Part shown: one piece after another, positions 54 through 8,321 of the stretch
How positions within the stretch are numbered: position 1 is the first letter of the stretch
Layout of the letters: every line of letters begins with the position of its first letter
Translations under genes and position numbers: made by a program
From: Promethearchaeota archaeon
GTDB taxonomy: Archaea > Asgardarchaeota > Odinarchaeia > Odinarchaeales > JBHLKK01
Reading direction: 5' to 3'
Length of the DNA: 8,429 bases
Assembly: GCA_048939465.1 (NCBI GenBank)
Contig: JBHLPL010000084.1
Location: 1-8,429 of the forward strand
The notes under the pieces: generated by a model
What the model saw: the letters and a program-made list of their open reading frames with translations, nothing else
Told to the model about the DNA's origin: nothing
Databases searched by the model: none

Positions 54-77
54 AGTCAAAGGAATAGGTTTTTGACT
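54..77. terminator. Possible terminator hairpin at the PAC2 gene end
   Basis: AGTCAAA (54-60) and TTTGACT (71-77) form a 7-bp inverted repeat with a 10-nt loop, overlapping the PAC2 stop codon. T-runs occur on both strands nearby. The function is a guess. Confidence 0.2.
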
Positions 78-864
78 AGCTTATGTATGATTGACGGTCT
101 GAGCCTTCAGGGATTCTTTTATCAAGACGACCCCTAAGCTTCTCAAAGGCGCGCTCCATGGTCACAATCTGCTTGTCCAGTGCACTCACATCAATCCCGA
201 TATTGAACCATTTACCTAATATATCGACAATTGCCCTAGAGGCCTTTGGGTCCGTCGCCAAAATAGGCATTGTCTCCGCTAGTAAACAGACTCCGTCAAT
301 CCCATATTTGGCTTTTCCCCAAGCGGGGATTATACCATTTGCACCCATAATGACTCCTTCACCCATTACCTTGCATTGCTCAAGTTTCGTAAAGACATCA
401 AGAAGCTCGCGGGAAGTTGAGGAAACGAAAATGCTGGGCTCGGAAGAAACATTCTCTGTGACATACGCTCCTGTTGAAACAATAGTCTTCACACCGTGAG
501 ACTTGCAGAAGTTGCTAATGTAATCCGAAAATACAAATATACCGAGAGAAGTTGTTGGTTGAAAGTCGCCGCTTATGATGAATAAATCATTGACTCCTTT
601 TGGATTTTTCCAGAAGTAGATTGTTGATCGCGGTACGTGAAGCTTTCCATCTGCCCCCACAGCAACCTGGGCTGGGAAATCGTGGTAGAAAATCAAGGCG
701 ACCTTCTCAGCCTTTAGGCTTTCAGCGATGCTTAGAACAGCCCCTTTGCCGACCATTGCTATTCCAGGTAGCCCTACGATAGCCACAGGGTTATTTAACT
801 TAGCATGATCTAGTTTCTTCAGTATTTCTGTACGGGGCCCATTCATTCGGTGCACATTCTTCAC
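76..864 (-). CDS. PAC2-family proteasome assembly chaperone-like protein (COG2047/TIGR00162 type)
   Basis: N-terminal IVGLPGIAMVGK (family motif GLPGxGxVGK), YHDFPAQV, IISGDFQP, GANGII, GVCLLAET, DPKAS, and a C-terminal ..SYIS matching the YIG-type tail. The start is either GTG at 864 (overlapping AAGGAGTG) or ATG at 846. Confidence 0.9.
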   Translation of the reverse strand: MKNVHRMNGPRTEILKKLDHAKLNNPVAIVGLPGIAMVGKGAVLSIAESLKAEKVALIFYHDFPAQVAVGADGKLHVPRSTIYFWKNPKGVNDLFIISGDFQPTTSLGIFVFSDYISNFCKSHGVKTIVSTGAYVTENVSSEPSIFVSSTSRELLDVFTKLEQCKVMGEGVIMGANGIIPAWGKAKYGIDGVCLLAETMPILATDPKASRAIVDILGKWFNIGIDVSALDKQIVTMERAFEKLRGRLDKRIPEGSDRQSYIS

Positions 865-930: not shown

Positions 931-934
931 CTGT

Positions 935-938
935 TCAT
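935..938 (+). other. Inferred target tetranucleotide/TAM (TCAT; TTCAT with 934) of the IS200/IS605 insertion
   Basis: It lies 15 nt before GAGA (954-957), which sits at the foot of the left-end hairpin. This gives the +16..+19 guide geometry known for IS608. GAGA pairs with TCAT by the IS608 rule (guide 1,2,4 with cleavage 2,1,4). Joining 938 to 1317 restores an in-frame stop for the neighbouring gene. Confidence 0.65.
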
Positions 939-953
939 TTGAAACACCTCGAG

Positions 954-977
954 GAGACTCCATCCTGAAGGACGAAG
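954..977 (+). repeat. Left-end subterminal hairpin with guide tetranucleotide
   Basis: GAGA-CTCCATCC-TGAA-GGACGAAG, with 6 of 8 stem pairs intact. Positions 955-977 match the minus-strand hairpin at 3102-3080 at 18 of 23 positions without gaps. Confidence 0.65.
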
Positions 978-1022
978 AGGAACTCAGGTTAACATTAAAT
1001 GGGTCCGTCAAATGATTAGAAT

Positions 1023-1237
1023 CTCGAAGTAGTTTATGTCAGCCCTAACTACACCAGCAAAGAATGTAACAGATGTCACTGTAGAGACACTTCCCGACAT
1101 TAGGATGCCCAGAATGCAAGGTGTGCGGACACACCCCCAACTCGGACCTGAATGGTGCAAGAAACACAGCCCGACGCTACATGCGGATTACCAAGCTGGG
1201 CTTTTGTAAACAAGCCCCCCGATTTAGCGTGTTGTGA
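1023..1237 (+). pseudogene. tnpB: tnpB C-terminal remnant (zinc finger plus RuvC-III), truncated and frameshifted
   Basis: The frame from 1023 reads LEVVYVSPNYTSKECNRCHCRDTSRH* (TnpB VxPxYTSxxCxxC). After a frameshift at about 1101-1103, the frame from 1103 reads GCPECKVCGHTPNSDLNGARNTARRYM...SVL* (CxxCG..NxDxNAAxN, with the RuvC-III Asp at 1145). RuvC-I/II and the N-terminus are absent. Confidence 0.9.
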
Positions 1238-1336
1238 AGTCGAGACTATCCCTAACGGCATAAGATTGATACCGAGCACAGCTACAAACTTCATTTGTTA
1301 GGGCGGAGTAGCTTACGATTCAGTAGGATTCGTGAA
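1198..1336 (+). ncRNA. TnpB omegaRNA/reRNA-like scaffold (to 1316) plus flank-derived guide (about 1317-1336)
   Basis: Hairpin GGGCTT-TTGTAAAC-AAGCCC (1198-1217). Long stem TAGC/GCTA (1225-1228 with 1281-1284) plus GTGTT/AGCAC (1229-1233 with 1275-1279). Terminal hairpin then TAGCTTAC. This layout matches IS605-type tnpB 3' ends as I recall them. The 5' boundary and expression are unknown. Confidence 0.62.
1285..1316 (+). repeat. Right end of the element (degenerate hairpin plus terminal TTAC)
   Basis: ACTTCATTT-GTT-AGGGCGGAGT-AGC-TTAC. The stem now relies on several G-T pairs and has one mismatch. Positions 1286-1316 match 3102-3072 (minus) at 22 of 31 positions without gaps. Confidence 0.8.
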
Positions 1337-2236
1337 TCGAGACTCAATATCAGGCACTCGGATTTCAGCAAGCCCGATGACTTTCGAAACCATGGTCTCT
1401 TCTATGTCCAATTCTCTAATTAACTCGTCTTTTGTGATTTTCTCTTTAAACCGGACTATGTTACTAATCCTAGTAACATAGCTATACAAACGACTAATTC
1501 TATTCTTGAGAATTTCAAGTGCTCTTGGATCTTCCATATCTTTTACCTCCAAAATAATCTGAAGCAGGGAGGTCATCCAAGACACATTCTCTGGTTTCGA
1601 GATTCCATGTTTCTCGAACAGTCCAGTATCAACATAGTACACAATATATCTGTCTGGTCTTTTAACAGAGGGGAGCTCATCCAGTTTGACGCCTATCAAT
1701 TGGGATTCTTCTAAATTATCCTCTTCAGTTAGCTGCGCTATTGAAACACTCTCAGGAGAGATGCTGGACAAAGTGCAAAGCAAGATACGGACTTCAATCT
1801 TATTATCCCCAACAATGAAGATTTTATCACCATTGACCAAGTGATAGATGAGCTTTGCAAGATCACCAGCAGAAACGACCTTCAGAGTGTCCTCTATCGA
1901 TTTTAGCGTAGCGATATCAATCATTGAAAACATATTGCGTTTATTGATATTTAGAATGAATGCGAGCGATATTTGGGATAGACGCCAGTTGATTTCTGAC
2001 CTTGAATAGTCCCTACTACTAACAACTATTAATATGTAATCACTCATCTTTTTGAACCAGAAGGTGAAATCGCTTGTGGATATTTCTTCAACGCTCTGAC
2101 CGGTTAATATGTTGAGGAAGCTATTTTGAGCGCTGAAATATCCAGAGATTAGGGTGGGATCAACTGCGATGCTTCCGTACACTCTAGAAACAAGGGGGAT
2201 CCCATCTGTCTCCAAAATGTAAACATTGTGTATCAT
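1313..2236 (-). CDS. Longin-domain protein with a DENN/folliculin-like central domain (307 aa)
   Basis: MIHNVYILETDGIPLVSRVYGS..DPTLISGYFSAQNSF..EEISTSDFTFWFKK..YILIVVS fits the longin beta-beta-alpha-beta-beta-beta-alpha pattern. LIYHLVNGDKIFIVGD..VRILLCTLSSISP (1852-1754) resembles the DENN core helix-strand-helix. I place the start at ATG 2236 rather than 2392. The ORF is solid, the longin call is likely, and the DENN call is less certain. Confidence 0.75.
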   Translation of the reverse strand: MIHNVYILETDGIPLVSRVYGSIAVDPTLISGYFSAQNSFLNILTGQSVEEISTSDFTFWFKKMSDYILIVVSSRDYSRSEINWRLSQISLAFILNINKRNMFSMIDIATLKSIEDTLKVVSAGDLAKLIYHLVNGDKIFIVGDNKIEVRILLCTLSSISPESVSIAQLTEEDNLEESQLIGVKLDELPSVKRPDRYIVYYVDTGLFEKHGISKPENVSWMTSLLQIILEVKDMEDPRALEILKNRISRLYSYVTRISNIVRFKEKITKDELIRELDIEETMVSKVIGLAEIRVPDIESRFTNPTES

Positions 2237-3071: not shown

Positions 3072-3104
3072 GTGAACTACTCCATCCTTTCGGATGAAGT
3101 CTTC
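3072..3104 (-). mobile_element. Isolated IS200/IS605 end, most likely a right end
   Basis: The minus strand reads GAAG-ACTTCATCC-GAAA-GGATGGAGT-AGT-TCAC: a 9-bp stem with one G-T pair, a GNRA loop and terminal TCAC. GAAG pairs with TCAC under the IS608 guide rule. No tnpB lies upstream of it. Confidence 0.7.
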
Positions 3105-3168
3105 TTGCAAAGAAGAAGACAAAAAGCCACCTTCCAATAGTAAGTCCTTAAGGCTATTGTTATAACTT

Positions 3169-3602: not shown

Positions 3603-6600
3603 CTATTCAAGTGCCTTTTCATAGATAGTCAACATTCTTTGAGTGACTCTATTCCAGGAACATAATCTTGTTACCAAATCCCTGGCGTTCCTTCCCATCT
3701 CTCTCCGTTTCTTATCATCATTGAGTAGAGAAGAAATAGCCTCGGATAAATTTCCCACAAGTTCAGAATCCAGACTTATTAGTCGTCCCACGTCTCGGTT
3801 TACAAATTCTTCGAAGGCTTCTATCCTCGAGGCAATCGTGGGCACACCGCATGCCATAGCCTCCAAAACAGATATGCTCATCAGTTCCATCTTCGTCATG
3901 GTAACAAACAGGTCGGCATGCCTTAGGAGCCTAATCTTCTCTTTCTCAGGAACATAGCCGGCAACAATAATATTATCCCCGCCATATCTACTTCTCAGGG
4001 AATTATACAAAGGACCTTTTCCAACAATTATCAGACGAACCTCTTCGCCAAAATCACACTTCAAATATGCCTTGATAAGCGGGCCTATGTTCTTTTCAGG
4101 AGACAGTCTTCCAACATATAATATTGTCTTTTCTTTCCTCTTTTTTAACGGCAGTGGTCTGAATACATTTACGTCCACCCCTGTTGGAACGTGATTCACA
4201 TTGGGAAAACCCACACTCTTAACAAAGCTCTCCTGCGATTTGGAAGTTACTATTATCTGATCTGATTGTCTTAGATAGCGCTTACCTATTTGATACATTA
4301 AGCGGGAGAGATACCCATAGGCTGTATTTTGAAGCGATAAGGCATAGTGGAGACTACACACAATAGGAATGTTCAGTTTTCTTGCAGCTTTAAAGGCATA
4401 AGCGTCCCAAGTCGTAGTAGGCCAGTGCAGATGAAGAAGCTGGAACGGTCGCTTCTTATGATTCCTCACTATTGTGCTTACTGCTTCTTTGCCTTTGGGG
4501 AGCACAAAATAAAACTCACCAACCTTAATTCGTGTGGGAAGAGGGATGTCCTTAGGAGAAATGGGATCTATACCTCTCTCCTCCGGGAAATAAAAGCCAA
4601 CTGTCTTGTTGTTATCTTTTTGTAAATGCTTGCGAAGGTGTGTAACATAGTGATATATGCCGTGAGTTGCCCCAGGGTATATTATGCCTATGTTAAGACC
4701 TTTTTTCTCGACATCTTCTTTCTTTCTAAGACCTACTGTGAGCTTCGTTTCTTTTCCAGGACGGTGTTCTATGCTTCCAATAAGATTGTGGGGCATCGCT
4801 ATTGATTTTCCAGTTGCTAAGATTTCTTCTGGATTCTTGCTCTCAATAAGCGAAAGTGCAGAAACTTGTCTGTAGATTCCTGCATGAATCCAGTTCGTAC
4901 GAAGGCTTACATCAATACCAAGAACGTCTTTCTTCTGAAGCAATCGGTCAAATGATTGTCCAGTAGTCTTATCGGGGTTACATATCTCCCAAACAAGTGT
5001 GTTGTTTGACCTGCCAATAATAACCGATCTATTCTCATTATCGACAAAAACTTCAGATCCGTTTGTGTTCAATCCGATATAAGGAACCAAAGCTTGCCGA
5101 CAGTCTGTATCTTCAGCCAGCGTTTCTATCTGAAGCGGATTAAACAGAAGCATTGGTGTTCCATTGATATTGAAGGCATATACTCTGAAGCTAAGTCTAT
5201 GAAAATCAGTTGCAAATTCACCCGAGAATCTTACACAGAATGGGCCTTCTTTGTTGCCCAGAACCAGCTTAGAGATCTTCTTCTTGACTCTTTCCCACTC
5301 GTGTACCTTGATGCTGTCTTCTGCTTCTTTTGGTCCTACACCGTAAAGGGCATCTTTTACACTACTTGAGGCCAGGAGAAGTCGGAAGTAGTATTGCCGT
5401 AGAGTTCTTTTTATCGTTCTTTTGAGTCTTGCATATCGAGAGTAACAGGGCCAAAATGAAACGCCGACTCCTCTTTCATTAAGAAAATTCTCGCCGAAAT
5501 TGTTCTTTAACGATTCAATTACGCCAGTTTCTTTGTTTATTCGGCAGAATTCTCTCCAGCTGTTATTTTCTCTTACTTCAATCAATAGATGATCTCGGCC
5601 AAGGCTGCACCTTATTCTACTCGGTATTCTCTTCCTTGTCCTAGCTTCGTCATCAAAATAGATGAAAAGCTCTGTTTGGGGGTGCTCAACAGGTATGAAA
5701 GCAACGATCTCATCATTCGGGCGCAGTTGAGTCTTACTTCTCCCTATGACCTGAGAGGGAATCAGCTTACCGTTATGAATTACTCGAATAGACTGAGGAT
5801 TTATTGCAGCGTTCAGATTATCGAGCAAGTGTTTGGCGGGTACGACAAGAGGAATCGTTGTCAAATTCGAAGACAAATCAAGCAAGACAAGAGGAACGCG
5901 GTACTTCCAGCGCTTGTTCCACCATTTCTTTGTCTCTTTGCCTCTTCCATGTAATCGAATGACATGTTCACCACTTGGAACCGAAATTCCTCTGGATTTC
6001 AAATCTTCCTTACTTAGCTTGGCCAAGACCTTTTTGCCAATGGAAACAAAGATTTCTTCAAAAGGGGAGTTCCTCACAAGGACCGTAGGGTGAGTTCCGC
6101 TATACCAAATCTTAATTCTCTGATTCTCAGGATTCCAAAGAGCAAGCAGATTATTAACTGATTCTCCCGTGATTCTCATATCTGAGCTATTCCTTCTGGT
6201 GACCAAGACAGTCAGGGTCTGACCTTCTTTAAGGTTGATACCAAAAATACTCCTATTGCTTCTTGAGACAATCTCTTCATTATCTATCTCAGCCTGTCGT
6301 CCGACTAGGTATGGCGAACGGATTTCGATTCCTGATACTTCAGCATCTGAATTGTTCTTTAGGACAATGTGCACGATTCCCTTTTCCAGGTAGACTTTCT
6401 GAAGAAAGCTGCATTTTTCCAGAAGTTCGATTTTGTTTCCTTTTACTTCGAAACTGATCTTCTTGTCCAGCGTCTCACATTCCATGGACGCTAATAGAAG
6501 TTCGCTTGCGGCGAAGGTCTGCTGGACTGGTATGTCTTCTAGCCCATGGATATAATTGAAGAAATAGGTTTCACTAAGTCCGCCATCTTTTTCTATGAAA

Positions 6601-8321
6601 TCAAGTGCCTTCCGATAGACATAATTGAAGATCTTACTCCAGAAGGGGTTTCCAGTTATCCTATATAATCTTGAATAGACTGACAGGACCATGACTGTCT
6701 CATAAGGTGCCACTCGAGGAGTTATGGAAAACGAGAGCGGATCAAAACCGCCACGGATTTTGAGCCTATCTGATTCCCACCAGAAGTGCCATGTTAGGAG
6801 GTATTTTGCCCAAGCCAATGAATAGTCTAGGAACTTCCTTTTATGAAGTGTTTCGTAGGCGTCCAGATTGGCATGAGCAGCGATGATTGCAGATATTCCT
6901 TCTTCCTCGTCAACTCCGGCGTCTCTCAGATAATTATACCCTAGGCAAGCAAAACCCCCTGGATTAAGCCAGTCTAACCCCTTCAGTGCTGCAGAACGAT
7001 ATATCTTCTCCCCGGTTATTCTATGGGCGAGGAGAAGAGCCCTTATGCATTCCGCGCTTCCACCCACAGACTCTTTGGATTCAAAATCTAATCTACGGGC
7101 AGGATATTCCCCAAAAACCTTTATTCCGAGTCGCCAAGCTCCATTGTCCTTCTGGGTTCTTAATATCCAATCAAGCGCGTCCAAACCCGCATTTAAGGCT
7201 CTTCTATCCTCTCGGTCTTCCCAGTCTCGCCGGATATGGTACAACTCTAAGAATTTCAGAGCAATAGTTGCCTGACCCCCCGGATATCCCGCATATCCGC
7301 TCTTAAGATATGAGTATCCTTCAGCCGTTACTCCATTGTAAGCAATACTATTGTGCCATATTCTACAGTTGTTCTTTATCTCCGATAGATTCCTGGAAAG
7401 CAATAGTTTTCTCAACCGGTTTGACCAATTGAGGAAAGACTTGCTGCCACTCTTCAAATAGTAGCGGTAGAAATTCACCATTCGTTCTGCTTCAAAGGAA
7501 GTGAGACTAAAGAGCAAATCATCAAACAAGAAAGATGGATGATCCTTATAAGGAAGCTGCAAGAAAGTGCCTAGCCTATCATCCCAGGCTCTCCAAAAAG
7601 CGTTCTGGGTTTTGGCAGCAACTCTTCTACAAGTCTCCAAATCCGTTGACAGTTGTTCCAGCGGCTTTACTTGGAAGAATCCATCTACAGCTTCAGTCCA
7701 GATACCGTACCCATAAATGATAGACGCTGTTGTCTTTATCTCCTCTCCCGCATCCAAAACTATTGGAAGAGGCTCAGGTCTTGGATGACGGCCAAGCCAA
7801 ATGTTCCTTTTTAACATCAATTCTTGGGAGCAATAAGCCAAGGCCGCAACACTATCACCTGTTTCAGACGATCTCCTGCCCTCAAACCTGATGGAGTGAA
7901 CAAGATTCTGATCAAGACTCGACTTTTCAATAGGAGAGAACACAACTCCGAAGTACGAGTTGGAGGAATTGAACATAATAAGAGGCATCTTGCAGTACAT
8001 CGCACTTCGATAGCAATTCCCGTCAATGGTTGCTGGTGGGATTTTGGACTTGTAGTAGGTTGAGAAAGGATAAGGAAAATCGAATCTTCGATTAACTATA
8101 TCAAAATCGTCGGACCGAACGTAGCGCATGCCACCGACAAAGGCGTAATTCACTGGAAGCGAGCAGCACAATATGGGGTTCTCGAAGAGAACTAATTCAA
8201 CTCTATCCGGAGAAGTGCATGTTGTTATTATTTGAGGAAAAGACTTCGAGAAATCCCAAATAGTGTCAATTTTCCACCTTTCAGATTCGCCTGAAAGTCT
8301 TATTTCGTTCTTTCCAACCAC
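3603..8321 (-). CDS. 1572-aa multidomain carbohydrate-active protein: six-hairpin glycosidase-like domain, beta-rich domains and C-terminal GT4 glycosyltransferase
   Basis: Uninterrupted 4.7-kb ORF with a GTG start bounded by an in-frame TGA at 8339-8337. See the separate domain entries. No signal peptide or transmembrane segment is visible. Confidence 0.9.
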   Translation of the reverse strand: MVGKNEIRLSGESERWKIDTIWDFSKSFPQIITTCTSPDRVELVLFENPILCCSLPVNYAFVGGMRYVRSDDFDIVNRRFDFPYPFSTYYKSKIPPATIDGNCYRSAMYCKMPLIMFNSSNSYFGVVFSPIEKSSLDQNLVHSIRFEGRRSSETGDSVAALAYCSQELMLKRNIWLGRHPRPEPLPIVLDAGEEIKTTASIIYGYGIWTEAVDGFFQVKPLEQLSTDLETCRRVAAKTQNAFWRAWDDRLGTFLQLPYKDHPSFLFDDLLFSLTSFEAERMVNFYRYYLKSGSKSFLNWSNRLRKLLLSRNLSEIKNNCRIWHNSIAYNGVTAEGYSYLKSGYAGYPGGQATIALKFLELYHIRRDWEDREDRRALNAGLDALDWILRTQKDNGAWRLGIKVFGEYPARRLDFESKESVGGSAECIRALLLAHRITGEKIYRSAALKGLDWLNPGGFACLGYNYLRDAGVDEEEGISAIIAAHANLDAYETLHKRKFLDYSLAWAKYLLTWHFWWESDRLKIRGGFDPLSFSITPRVAPYETVMVLSVYSRLYRITGNPFWSKIFNYVYRKALDFIEKDGGLSETYFFNYIHGLEDIPVQQTFAASELLLASMECETLDKKISFEVKGNKIELLEKCSFLQKVYLEKGIVHIVLKNNSDAEVSGIEIRSPYLVGRQAEIDNEEIVSRSNRSIFGINLKEGQTLTVLVTRRNSSDMRITGESVNNLLALWNPENQRIKIWYSGTHPTVLVRNSPFEEIFVSIGKKVLAKLSKEDLKSRGISVPSGEHVIRLHGRGKETKKWWNKRWKYRVPLVLLDLSSNLTTIPLVVPAKHLLDNLNAAINPQSIRVIHNGKLIPSQVIGRSKTQLRPNDEIVAFIPVEHPQTELFIYFDDEARTRKRIPSRIRCSLGRDHLLIEVRENNSWREFCRINKETGVIESLKNNFGENFLNERGVGVSFWPCYSRYARLKRTIKRTLRQYYFRLLLASSSVKDALYGVGPKEAEDSIKVHEWERVKKKISKLVLGNKEGPFCVRFSGEFATDFHRLSFRVYAFNINGTPMLLFNPLQIETLAEDTDCRQALVPYIGLNTNGSEVFVDNENRSVIIGRSNNTLVWEICNPDKTTGQSFDRLLQKKDVLGIDVSLRTNWIHAGIYRQVSALSLIESKNPEEILATGKSIAMPHNLIGSIEHRPGKETKLTVGLRKKEDVEKKGLNIGIIYPGATHGIYHYVTHLRKHLQKDNNKTVGFYFPEERGIDPISPKDIPLPTRIKVGEFYFVLPKGKEAVSTIVRNHKKRPFQLLHLHWPTTTWDAYAFKAARKLNIPIVCSLHYALSLQNTAYGYLSRLMYQIGKRYLRQSDQIIVTSKSQESFVKSVGFPNVNHVPTGVDVNVFRPLPLKKRKEKTILYVGRLSPEKNIGPLIKAYLKCDFGEEVRLIIVGKGPLYNSLRSRYGGDNIIVAGYVPEKEKIRLLRHADLFVTMTKMELMSISVLEAMACGVPTIASRIEAFEEFVNRDVGRLISLDSELVGNLSEAISSLLNDDKKRREMGRNARDLVTRLCSWNRVTQRMLTIYEKALE
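3606..4697 (-). other. GT4 (GT-B fold) glycosyltransferase domain, aa about 1209-1572
   Basis: LLHLHW, IPIVCSLH, VPTGVD..FRP, ILYVGRLSPEKN, LIIVGKGP, ADLFV, EX7E motif ELMSISVLEAMACGVPTIAS, and C-terminal MGRNAR..SW..V..IYE. Confidence 0.95.
4767..5609 (-). other. Beta-supersandwich-like region, aa about 905-1185
   Basis: CRINKETGVIESLKNNFGENFL resembles the start of GH38 C-terminal/galactose-mutarotase-like supersandwich domains and is followed by alternating beta-strand patterns. Boundaries are approximate. Confidence 0.4.
5652..5924 (-). other. DUF2341-like beta module, aa about 800-890
   Basis: It opens with WWNKRWKYRVPL (the WWxxxWxYRxxI motif that precedes DUF2341-type modules), then INPQSIRVI..IPSQV and LFIYFD. 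Confidence 0.45.
6477..7634 (-). other. (alpha/alpha)6 six-hairpin glycosidase-like barrel, aa about 230-615
   Basis: Repeated helical hairpins typical of this fold: ALDWILRTQKDNGAW, ALLLAHRITGEKIYRSAALKGLDWL, AYETLHKRKFLDYSLAWAKYLL, LYRITGNPFW. It also has an acidic cluster RDAGVDEEEG. The specific GH family cannot be assigned. Confidence 0.7.

What the first reader, a model, noticed from the sequence alone, without database searches (positions are those of the whole stretch)
935..1324. IS insertion into a stop codon that rebuilds the stop: protein-silent integration
Seen: the gene now ends ACT GAA TCG TAA (T-E-S-stop), where G-TAA is the reverse complement of the element's terminal TTAC (1313-1316). 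Joining 938 to 1317 gives ACT GAA TCA TGA, the same T-E-S-stop, where A-TGA is the reverse complement of the target TCAT (935-938). The left boundary was derived independently from IS608 guide geometry, so the in-frame stop is a real cross-check. Established: IS200/IS605 elements insert 3' of a 4-5 nt target, create no duplication, and carry the right-end tetranucleotide inside the element. Inference: elements with TCAN/TTAN targets and TTAC/TCAC/TCAA ends can land antisense on host stop codons and replace them in register, which would make every such stop a safe site. I do not know whether this has been described as a general strategy.
Basis: partly seen in the sequence, partly recalled or inferred. 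Interest (0 to 1): 0.8.

Follow-up and report, generated by a model that had tools for sequence, protein, structure and literature searches.

The report
Transposon end rebuilds host stop codon
A broken 378-base jumping element of a well-known family landed exactly on the stop codon of an Asgard archaeal gene and its own last letters supply a new stop, so the protein is unchanged; about a fifth of such elements in this genome do the same, most likely because these landings are harmless and last long, not because the element seeks them.

Summary
Confirmed. Window 939-1316 is an internally deleted tnpB-type IS200/IS605 element (PATE-like), inserted 3' of TTCAT (934-938) and ending in CTTAC. The host gene (longin-like, minus strand) ends TCG TAA; removing the element gives TCA TGA. 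A sister species (88% nt) is empty and matches the rebuilt junction with no base gained or lost, although its stop lies one codon earlier. Genome-wide, 18 of 87 right ends (21%) sit in this register, against 1.1% of all target sites and 5.9% of non-coding ones (OR 5, p 4e-7; my own gene calls). Congeners show independent cases, and 13 of 115 right ends from other archaea and bacteria do too. The rebuild is automatic: target and right end differ at only two positions, both read A/G-stop on the other strand, and A-to-G at a wobble position is silent except Ile to Met. Stop-landed copies are more decayed than others, which favours survival over targeting. 'Every such stop is safe' is overstated. 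I found no paper on this for IS200/IS605; REP termini supplying stops is a precedent. The scan already noted it at other sites here and in other genomes.

The parts
934..938 (+). Target / transposon-adjacent motif TTCAT; on the minus strand the old A-TGA-A stop context, now orphaned
   Evidence: Commonest pentamer before left ends in the genome (20 copies); ATGAA is kept in the empty sister species
939..1316 (+). 378-nt non-autonomous IS200/IS605 (tnpB-type, IS1341-like) element, internally deleted
   Evidence: 77% identical over the first 85 nt and 81% over the last 289 nt to a full-length 1246-nt element (C70 joined to C55) with a 381-aa TnpB; about 877 nt are missing
953..977 (+). Left end: putative DNA guide GGAG (953-956) and decayed subterminal hairpin (958-977)
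   Evidence: Guide base co-varies with target position -3 across copies (C with G 14, T with A 19, off-diagonal 13; p 0.006); this copy's hairpin is no more stable than shuffles
1028..1301 (+). Frameshifted remnant of the tnpB 3' end (zinc finger and RuvC-III motif NSDLNG), overlapping the presumed omegaRNA scaffold
   Evidence: Weak Cas12f1-like_TNB match, E 0.0012, below cut-off; 80% nt identity to the intact C55 tnpB end, which matches at 7e-21. The omegaRNA is inferred, not tested
1285..1316 (+). Right end: decayed guide (CAAA against consensus TAAG), decayed hairpin 1289-1308, terminal motif CTTAC 1312-1316, whose reverse complement gives the wobble G and the TAA stop
   Evidence: Family right-end profile hit E 8.6e-6; alignment to the C55 copy; two other runs of the species keep C at 1291 as in the consensus
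1313..2236 (-). Host gene, 307 aa (longest frame runs to 2392), longin-like domain; its last base of Ser and its stop come from the element
   Evidence: (Fuz_longin_1, E 0.003, below cut-off); orthologues end at the same or the preceding codon
894..911 (-). Conserved AT-rich motif between the host gene and the PAC2 gene, a putative promoter left intact by the insertion
   Evidence: Nearly invariant in five empty alleles; promoter function is inference
76..864 (-). Downstream PAC2-family gene, now separated from the host gene by the element
   Evidence: Pfam PF09754 E 2e-30; same neighbour 84-90 nt after the stop in empty relatives
3072..3118 (-). Second, 47-nt ends-only element of the sister family (target TTTGT from TTTAT, end TTCAC); not on a stop

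Best explanation
A tnpB-carrying IS200/IS605 element was pasted by TnpA (supplied in trans) 3' of TTCAT on the template strand of a gene whose stop read A-TGA-A. Insertion leaves the target on the left and places the element's terminal pentamer (family consensus TTTAC, here CTTAC) against the gene. Target and end are near copies because both are read by similar DNA guides. On the gene's strand A-TGA therefore becomes G-TAA in the same frame, and the A-to-G wobble change is silent. The frame in which the end gives a stop is necessarily the frame in which the target gave one, so landing on a stop rebuilds it automatically. TnpA does not see stop codons. Such copies are over-represented because insertions in coding DNA are purged, many intergenic sites are costly, and stop-landed right ends are hard to lose: a deletion removing them must cut coding sequence or abolish the stop. 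This copy is, or became, an internally deleted relic with decayed hairpins, and appears fixed in the species. Shown: identity, boundaries, empty allele, enrichment, greater decay of stop-landed copies. From established knowledge: insertion chemistry. Inferred: neutrality, lock-in, immobility.
For: Empty alleles. Family boundaries and guide/target covariation. Intact TnpA at C105 and intact TnpBs. Occupancy of target sites: stops 12% (18/149), intergenic 2.6%, tail-to-tail gaps 4.7%, coding 0.03%; 3-4% within 100 nt after a stop; both families about 12%. Stop-landed right ends are more decayed (nearest-neighbour score 27.9 against 29.7, p 0.003; mismatches 1.06 against 0.58, p 0.017), and two more very decayed ones were found on stops. 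Two stop landings are shared between species (C84 gene in G000 and G002; C106 orthologue in G001 and G002). TAM and TEM differ only at positions 3 and 5 (10.1101/2023.03.14.532601); insertion 3' of the target with no gain or loss (PMC3201880).
Against: The roughly four-fold excess over sites just 3' of stops (OR 3.5, p 4e-4) is not obviously explained by harmlessness alone, because a stop landing also separates a gene from its 3' end. The age signal is modest and rests on short sequences. Gene calls are from my own hexamer caller, so some 'intergenic' sites may be coding or regulatory, which would inflate the excess. No fitness or RNA data.
Confidence: 0.72

Rival explanations
1. TnpB homing favours stop sites. 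For a stop-landed element the omegaRNA guide is the antisense of the gene's last codons, a conserved sequence, so TnpB cutting of empty alleles and recombinational repair would fix these copies faster than copies in variable intergenic DNA, as inteins and homing introns favour conserved sites.
For: The geometry is direct from the sequence (guide = 1317 onward); intact TnpBs exist in the genome and one sits on a stop; TnpB biases inheritance by cutting empty sites (10.1101/2023.03.14.532601); no empty allele seen in five same-species data sets; excess over nearby intergenic sites.
Against: Several stop-landed copies are 46-47-nt ends-only elements with no omegaRNA scaffold, though they may have shrunk later. 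3' codons are among the least conserved parts of these genes. Greater decay is explained without homing.
Confidence: 0.15
2. True targeting or selected end design: TnpA prefers gene ends (single-stranded DNA there), or the target/end pair evolved because it preserves stops.
For: Very sharp peak at offset -3; recurrence in about 11 lineages; one stop is occupied by elements of different families in two species (C69 gene).
Against: The peak is expected because that single offset holds about 7% of gene ends as ready targets (133 of 1891). Target recognition is base pairing with a short guide (PMC3201880). Target/end similarity has a known chemical reason. Stop-landed copies look older, not younger. 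One shared site among about nine is what 12% occupancy gives by chance.
Confidence: 0.08
3. One-off coincidence or artefact: the stop is a premature truncation made by the element, or the boundaries are wrong.
For: The exact predicted empty junction was not found; two of twelve paired stop-landed copies have targets that no longer read as stops.
Against: Orthologues without the element end at the same codon for this gene and for at least five other G000 genes, including those two; reciprocal cases in congeners have A-TGA or A-TAA in G000; p about 1e-17 against all target sites.
Confidence: 0.02

Closest known systems
IS200/IS605 tnpB elements and PATE-like derivatives of Geobacillus stearothermophilus, ISGst1-5 (Meers et al., 10.1101/2023.03.14.532601)
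   Same: TAM before the left end, TEM at the right end (TTCAC reported for ISGst2), guide covariation, TAM and TEM differing at positions 3 and 5, non-autonomous copies
   Different: No mention of stop codons in that paper; this family uses TTCAT/TTTAC; this copy is a decayed relic
PATEs of Haloquadratum walsbyi (PMC3119063)
   Same: Transposase-free IS605 derivatives, internal deletions leaving C-terminal tnpB remnants, about 50-nt ends-only forms, heterogeneous copies, no target duplication
   Different: Landing on host stop codons was not among the passages retrieved; different phylum
IS608 of Helicobacter pylori (PMC3201880)
   Same: Insertion 3' of a short target, no gain or loss, right cleavage site inside the element, DNA guides 5' of hairpins
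   Different: TTAC/TCAA pair would change G to T at the wobble base, so it would be silent less often; IS608 is autonomous
GTAG REP elements moved by RAYT, an IS200/IS605-related transposase (PMC3733652)
   Same: The paper states that REP termini often provide the TAG stop codon of flanking ORFs
   Different: REPs are 20-40-bp repeats; the paper gives no empty-allele test, null model or mechanism
IStrons (10.1101/2023.11.20.567912)
   Same: IS605/IS607 elements whose insertion leaves the host protein intact
   Different: They achieve silence by group I intron splicing; here silence is at DNA level, only at stop codons, with no ribozyme (no Rfam match)

Membership tests
IS200/IS605 | Conserved 4-5-nt target immediately 5' of the left end | tested here: met
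   TTCAT 934-938; TTCAT 20 and TTTAT 13 among paired copies
IS200/IS605 | No target duplication, no base lost | tested here: met
   Empty sister allele aligns to the reconstruction without indel at the joint
IS200/IS605 | Subterminal hairpins at both ends instead of terminal inverted repeats | tested here: inconclusive
   Clear in the family consensus, decayed in this copy: fold z-scores +0.9 to -1.1
IS200/IS605 | DNA guides 5' of the hairpins that co-vary with target and right-end motifs | tested here: met
   Left p 0.006; right TCAC with GAAG 37, TTAC with TAAG 12; this copy's right guide has decayed
IS200/IS605 | tnpB and/or Y1 tnpA in the element or available in trans | tested here: met
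   tnpB remnant here; 381-aa TnpB in the full-length relative; intact Y1_Tnp at C105, E 7.5e-37
IS200/IS605 | TnpA-dependent single-strand excision and insertion | not testable with these tools
   No excised joint seen in contigs; needs an assay
PATE | Too short to encode a transposase; derived from an IS605-type element by internal deletion | tested here: met
   378 nt; about 877 nt deleted relative to the 1246-nt relative
OMEGA / TnpB-omegaRNA module | Expressed omegaRNA whose guide extends into the 3' flank | not tested
   Only DNA runs were available in the single run search; no Rfam match
IStron | Group I intron spanning the element | tested here: not met
   No Rfam intron match in the window; element only 378 nt

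The most novel reading that the evidence does not exclude
Stop codons are a general, selected niche for TT(C/T)AT-TT(T/C)AC IS200/IS605 elements across archaea and bacteria: landing there is protein-silent, locks the right end in place, and gives TnpB a guide against a coding sequence that the host cannot freely change, so these copies fix and persist preferentially, a splicing-free counterpart of IStrons and inteins.
Probability: 0.2. Interest if true: 0.7.

Novelty: new variant of a known kind. Interest (0 to 1): 0.5.

Why it matters
It explains how an abundant IS family (the most widespread in archaea, PMC13343696) can sit inside compact operons without changing proteins, and gives a countable rule: about 7% of gene ends here are ready targets and about 12% of those are occupied. 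It warns annotators that 3' ends of such genes, including the stop, belong to a mobile element, and that any omegaRNA from these copies would run antisense into the gene's last codons. It offers a simple test of selection against targeting, and natural protein-silent landing sites for TnpA cargo insertion. The element, the chemistry and the logic are known or follow directly, so the surprise is moderate.

Tried and rejected
Exact empty junction in the same species: not found; three runs of contigs cover the site with the element and no joint, the one raw-read run laid nothing; contigs drop rare variants, so this is not proof of fixation. Hairpin folding of this copy's ends was not significant. 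Rfam: one chance match only. The bacterial promoter/terminator scan was at chance level and is unsuited to archaea. An HMM search for further decayed ends on stops failed through a poor family split; a pairwise version found two clear extras but no excess over control offsets at loose thresholds, so I kept 18 as the count. Loss of the left end is not clearly commoner at stops (6/18 against 13/69). Premature truncation was rejected by orthologue ends; two orthologue comparisons were uninformative because the ends had diverged (C25, C66), and L049 is a read-through extension, not a native stop. Ten literature searches found no paper describing stop rebuilding by IS200/IS605; the library lacks most subscription papers. 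The cross-lineage null is rough: assumed targets, simple ORF calls, non-independent genomes, scan stopped at 120 loci.

Full report
Setting. The window is contig C5 of a 1.96-Mb, 91% complete genome. Close homologues of the host protein are labelled Promethearchaeota, Ca. Hodarchaeota and Ca. Odinarchaeia by their depositors, so the organism is an Asgard archaeon; the DNA occurs in mangrove and sediment metagenomes. A 307-aa longin-like gene (1313-2236, minus) is followed on the same strand by a PAC2-family gene.

The observation. TCAT is at 935-938 and TTAC at 1313-1316. The gene ends ACT GAA TCG TAA, and removing 939-1316 gives ACT GAA TCA TGA. The sister species, 88% identical in the gene, has no element and aligns to the rebuilt junction with no indel there; it reads GAA TAA TGA A, one base from the reconstruction, and keeps the ATGAA target. 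Two more distant congeners end E-S-TGA at the same position. All same-species data I could inspect carry the element.

What the element is. The genome holds at least 87 related right ends in two families: A with target TTCAT and end TTTAC, B with TTTAT and TTCAC. Putative DNA guides co-vary with both motifs, as described for ISGst elements and IS608. Contigs C70 and C55 overlap by 77 nt and give a full-length 1246-nt relative with a 381-aa TnpB; the window copy keeps its first 85 and last 289 nt. An intact TnpA with a second TnpB lies on C105. The window copy's hairpins and right guide have decayed. It is a PATE-like relic in the sense of PMC3119063.

Is it more than chance? With my own hexamer gene caller, 18 of 87 right ends overlap a convergent gene's stop at exactly the same offset. 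Only 1.1% of all TT(C/T)AT sites are such stops (p about 1e-17), and 5.9% of non-coding ones (observed 22.5%, odds ratio 5.1, p 4e-7). Occupancy is 12% at stops, 2.6% intergenic, 4.7% in tail-to-tail gaps and 0.03% in coding DNA; stricter gene calls and 4-nt targets give the same picture. Sites within 100 nt after a stop are 3-4% occupied, and both families show about 12% at stops. Ten of twelve paired copies reconstruct A-TGA or A-TAA; the other two have mutated targets, and their empty orthologues stop at the same codon. Congeners are empty with the same or nearly the same protein end at C96, C139, C69, C38, C48 and C77. Conversely, elements in G001 and G002 sit on stops of genes that are empty in this genome with A-TGA or A-TAA (C31, C73, C46, C138, C106). 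Among 115 TTCAC ends from other genomes, 13 sit on the stop of an ORF of at least 100 codons, in methanogens, other Asgard groups, an actinomycete and a deltaproteobacterium, against roughly 0.9% of all and 4% of non-coding target sites (odds ratio 3.6, p 6e-4; rough null).

How it works. Established: the element inserts 3' of its target and carries its right-end motif, and target and end motif differ only at positions 3 and 5. It follows that on the opposite strand A-TGA-A or A-TAA-A becomes G-TAA or G-TGA. The frame in which the end reads as a stop is the frame in which the target read as one, so in-register overlap means the native stop was hit. NNA to NNG is silent except Ile to Met, which is 3.7% of targetable stops here and was seen once in silico. 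A conserved AT-rich motif ahead of the PAC2 gene stays on the left flank, so the downstream gene may keep its own promoter (inference). Why stops are about four times fuller than nearby intergenic sites is the open point. Stop-landed right ends are more decayed than others (p 0.003 and 0.017), two further very decayed ones sit on stops, and two landings are shared between species. That fits longer survival, through harmlessness and because the right end cannot be deleted without damaging the gene. TnpB homing to coding targets and true targeting are not excluded but have less support.

Comparison and novelty. The element is an ordinary member of a known kind. I found no paper that describes or counts stop-codon rebuilding by IS200/IS605 elements. 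The nearest published statement is that GTAG REP termini often provide stop codons (PMC3733652); IStrons reach protein silence by splicing. Earlier notes of this scan report the same thing at other sites of this genome and in other genomes, with a similar one-fifth figure; I tested it independently and add the near-identical empty allele, the cross-lineage count and the age difference. Verdict: observation confirmed, interpretation partly supported, new variant of a known kind, interest 0.5.

Noticed in passing
window 3072-3118 (-): A 47-nt ends-only element of family B. Congener loci L027-L030 carry a 383-aa Pyr_redox_2 gene in this interval, between the 113-aa gene and DUF123, which the window lacks.
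   Followed up: partly
G000 C70:1-1005 joined to C55:5721-6043: The two contigs overlap by 77 nt and give a full-length 1246-nt element with an intact-looking 381-aa TnpB (TAM TTCAT) whose right end also supplies a stop; a candidate active nuclease.
   Followed up: partly
G000 C105:996-2845 (L120): tnpA plus tnpB cassette preceded by a 47-nt mini-element; the only Y1 transposase found in the assembly.
   Followed up: partly
G000 C139, C66, C69 (28447-28752): Three elements sit in stop/start overlaps (ATGA), and seven more lie directly before a start codon, since the target reads ATGAA on the other strand.
   Followed up: partly
G000 C69:28749 and L037 (G001): The same stop codon is occupied by a family A element in one species and a family B element in the other.
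   Followed up: partly
L021-L026, L033: The sister species has TAA TGA in tandem where the window lineage had TCA TGA, so its protein is one residue shorter.
   Followed up: yes
G000 C38, C66, C10, C96, C23 and others: Many family A copies are about 300 nt long with a shared internal segment unlike the window's tnpB remnant, suggesting a separately amplified gene-less lineage.
   Followed up: no
window 3603-8321 (-): A 1572-aa protein (1645 aa in relatives) with a C-terminal GT4 glycosyltransferase and about 1200 residues without a Pfam match.
   Followed up: no
G000 C23:17142 and C61:5594 (element coordinates): Two elements lie in the last codons of genes in another frame; the ORF runs 14 nt into the right end before stopping.
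   Followed up: no
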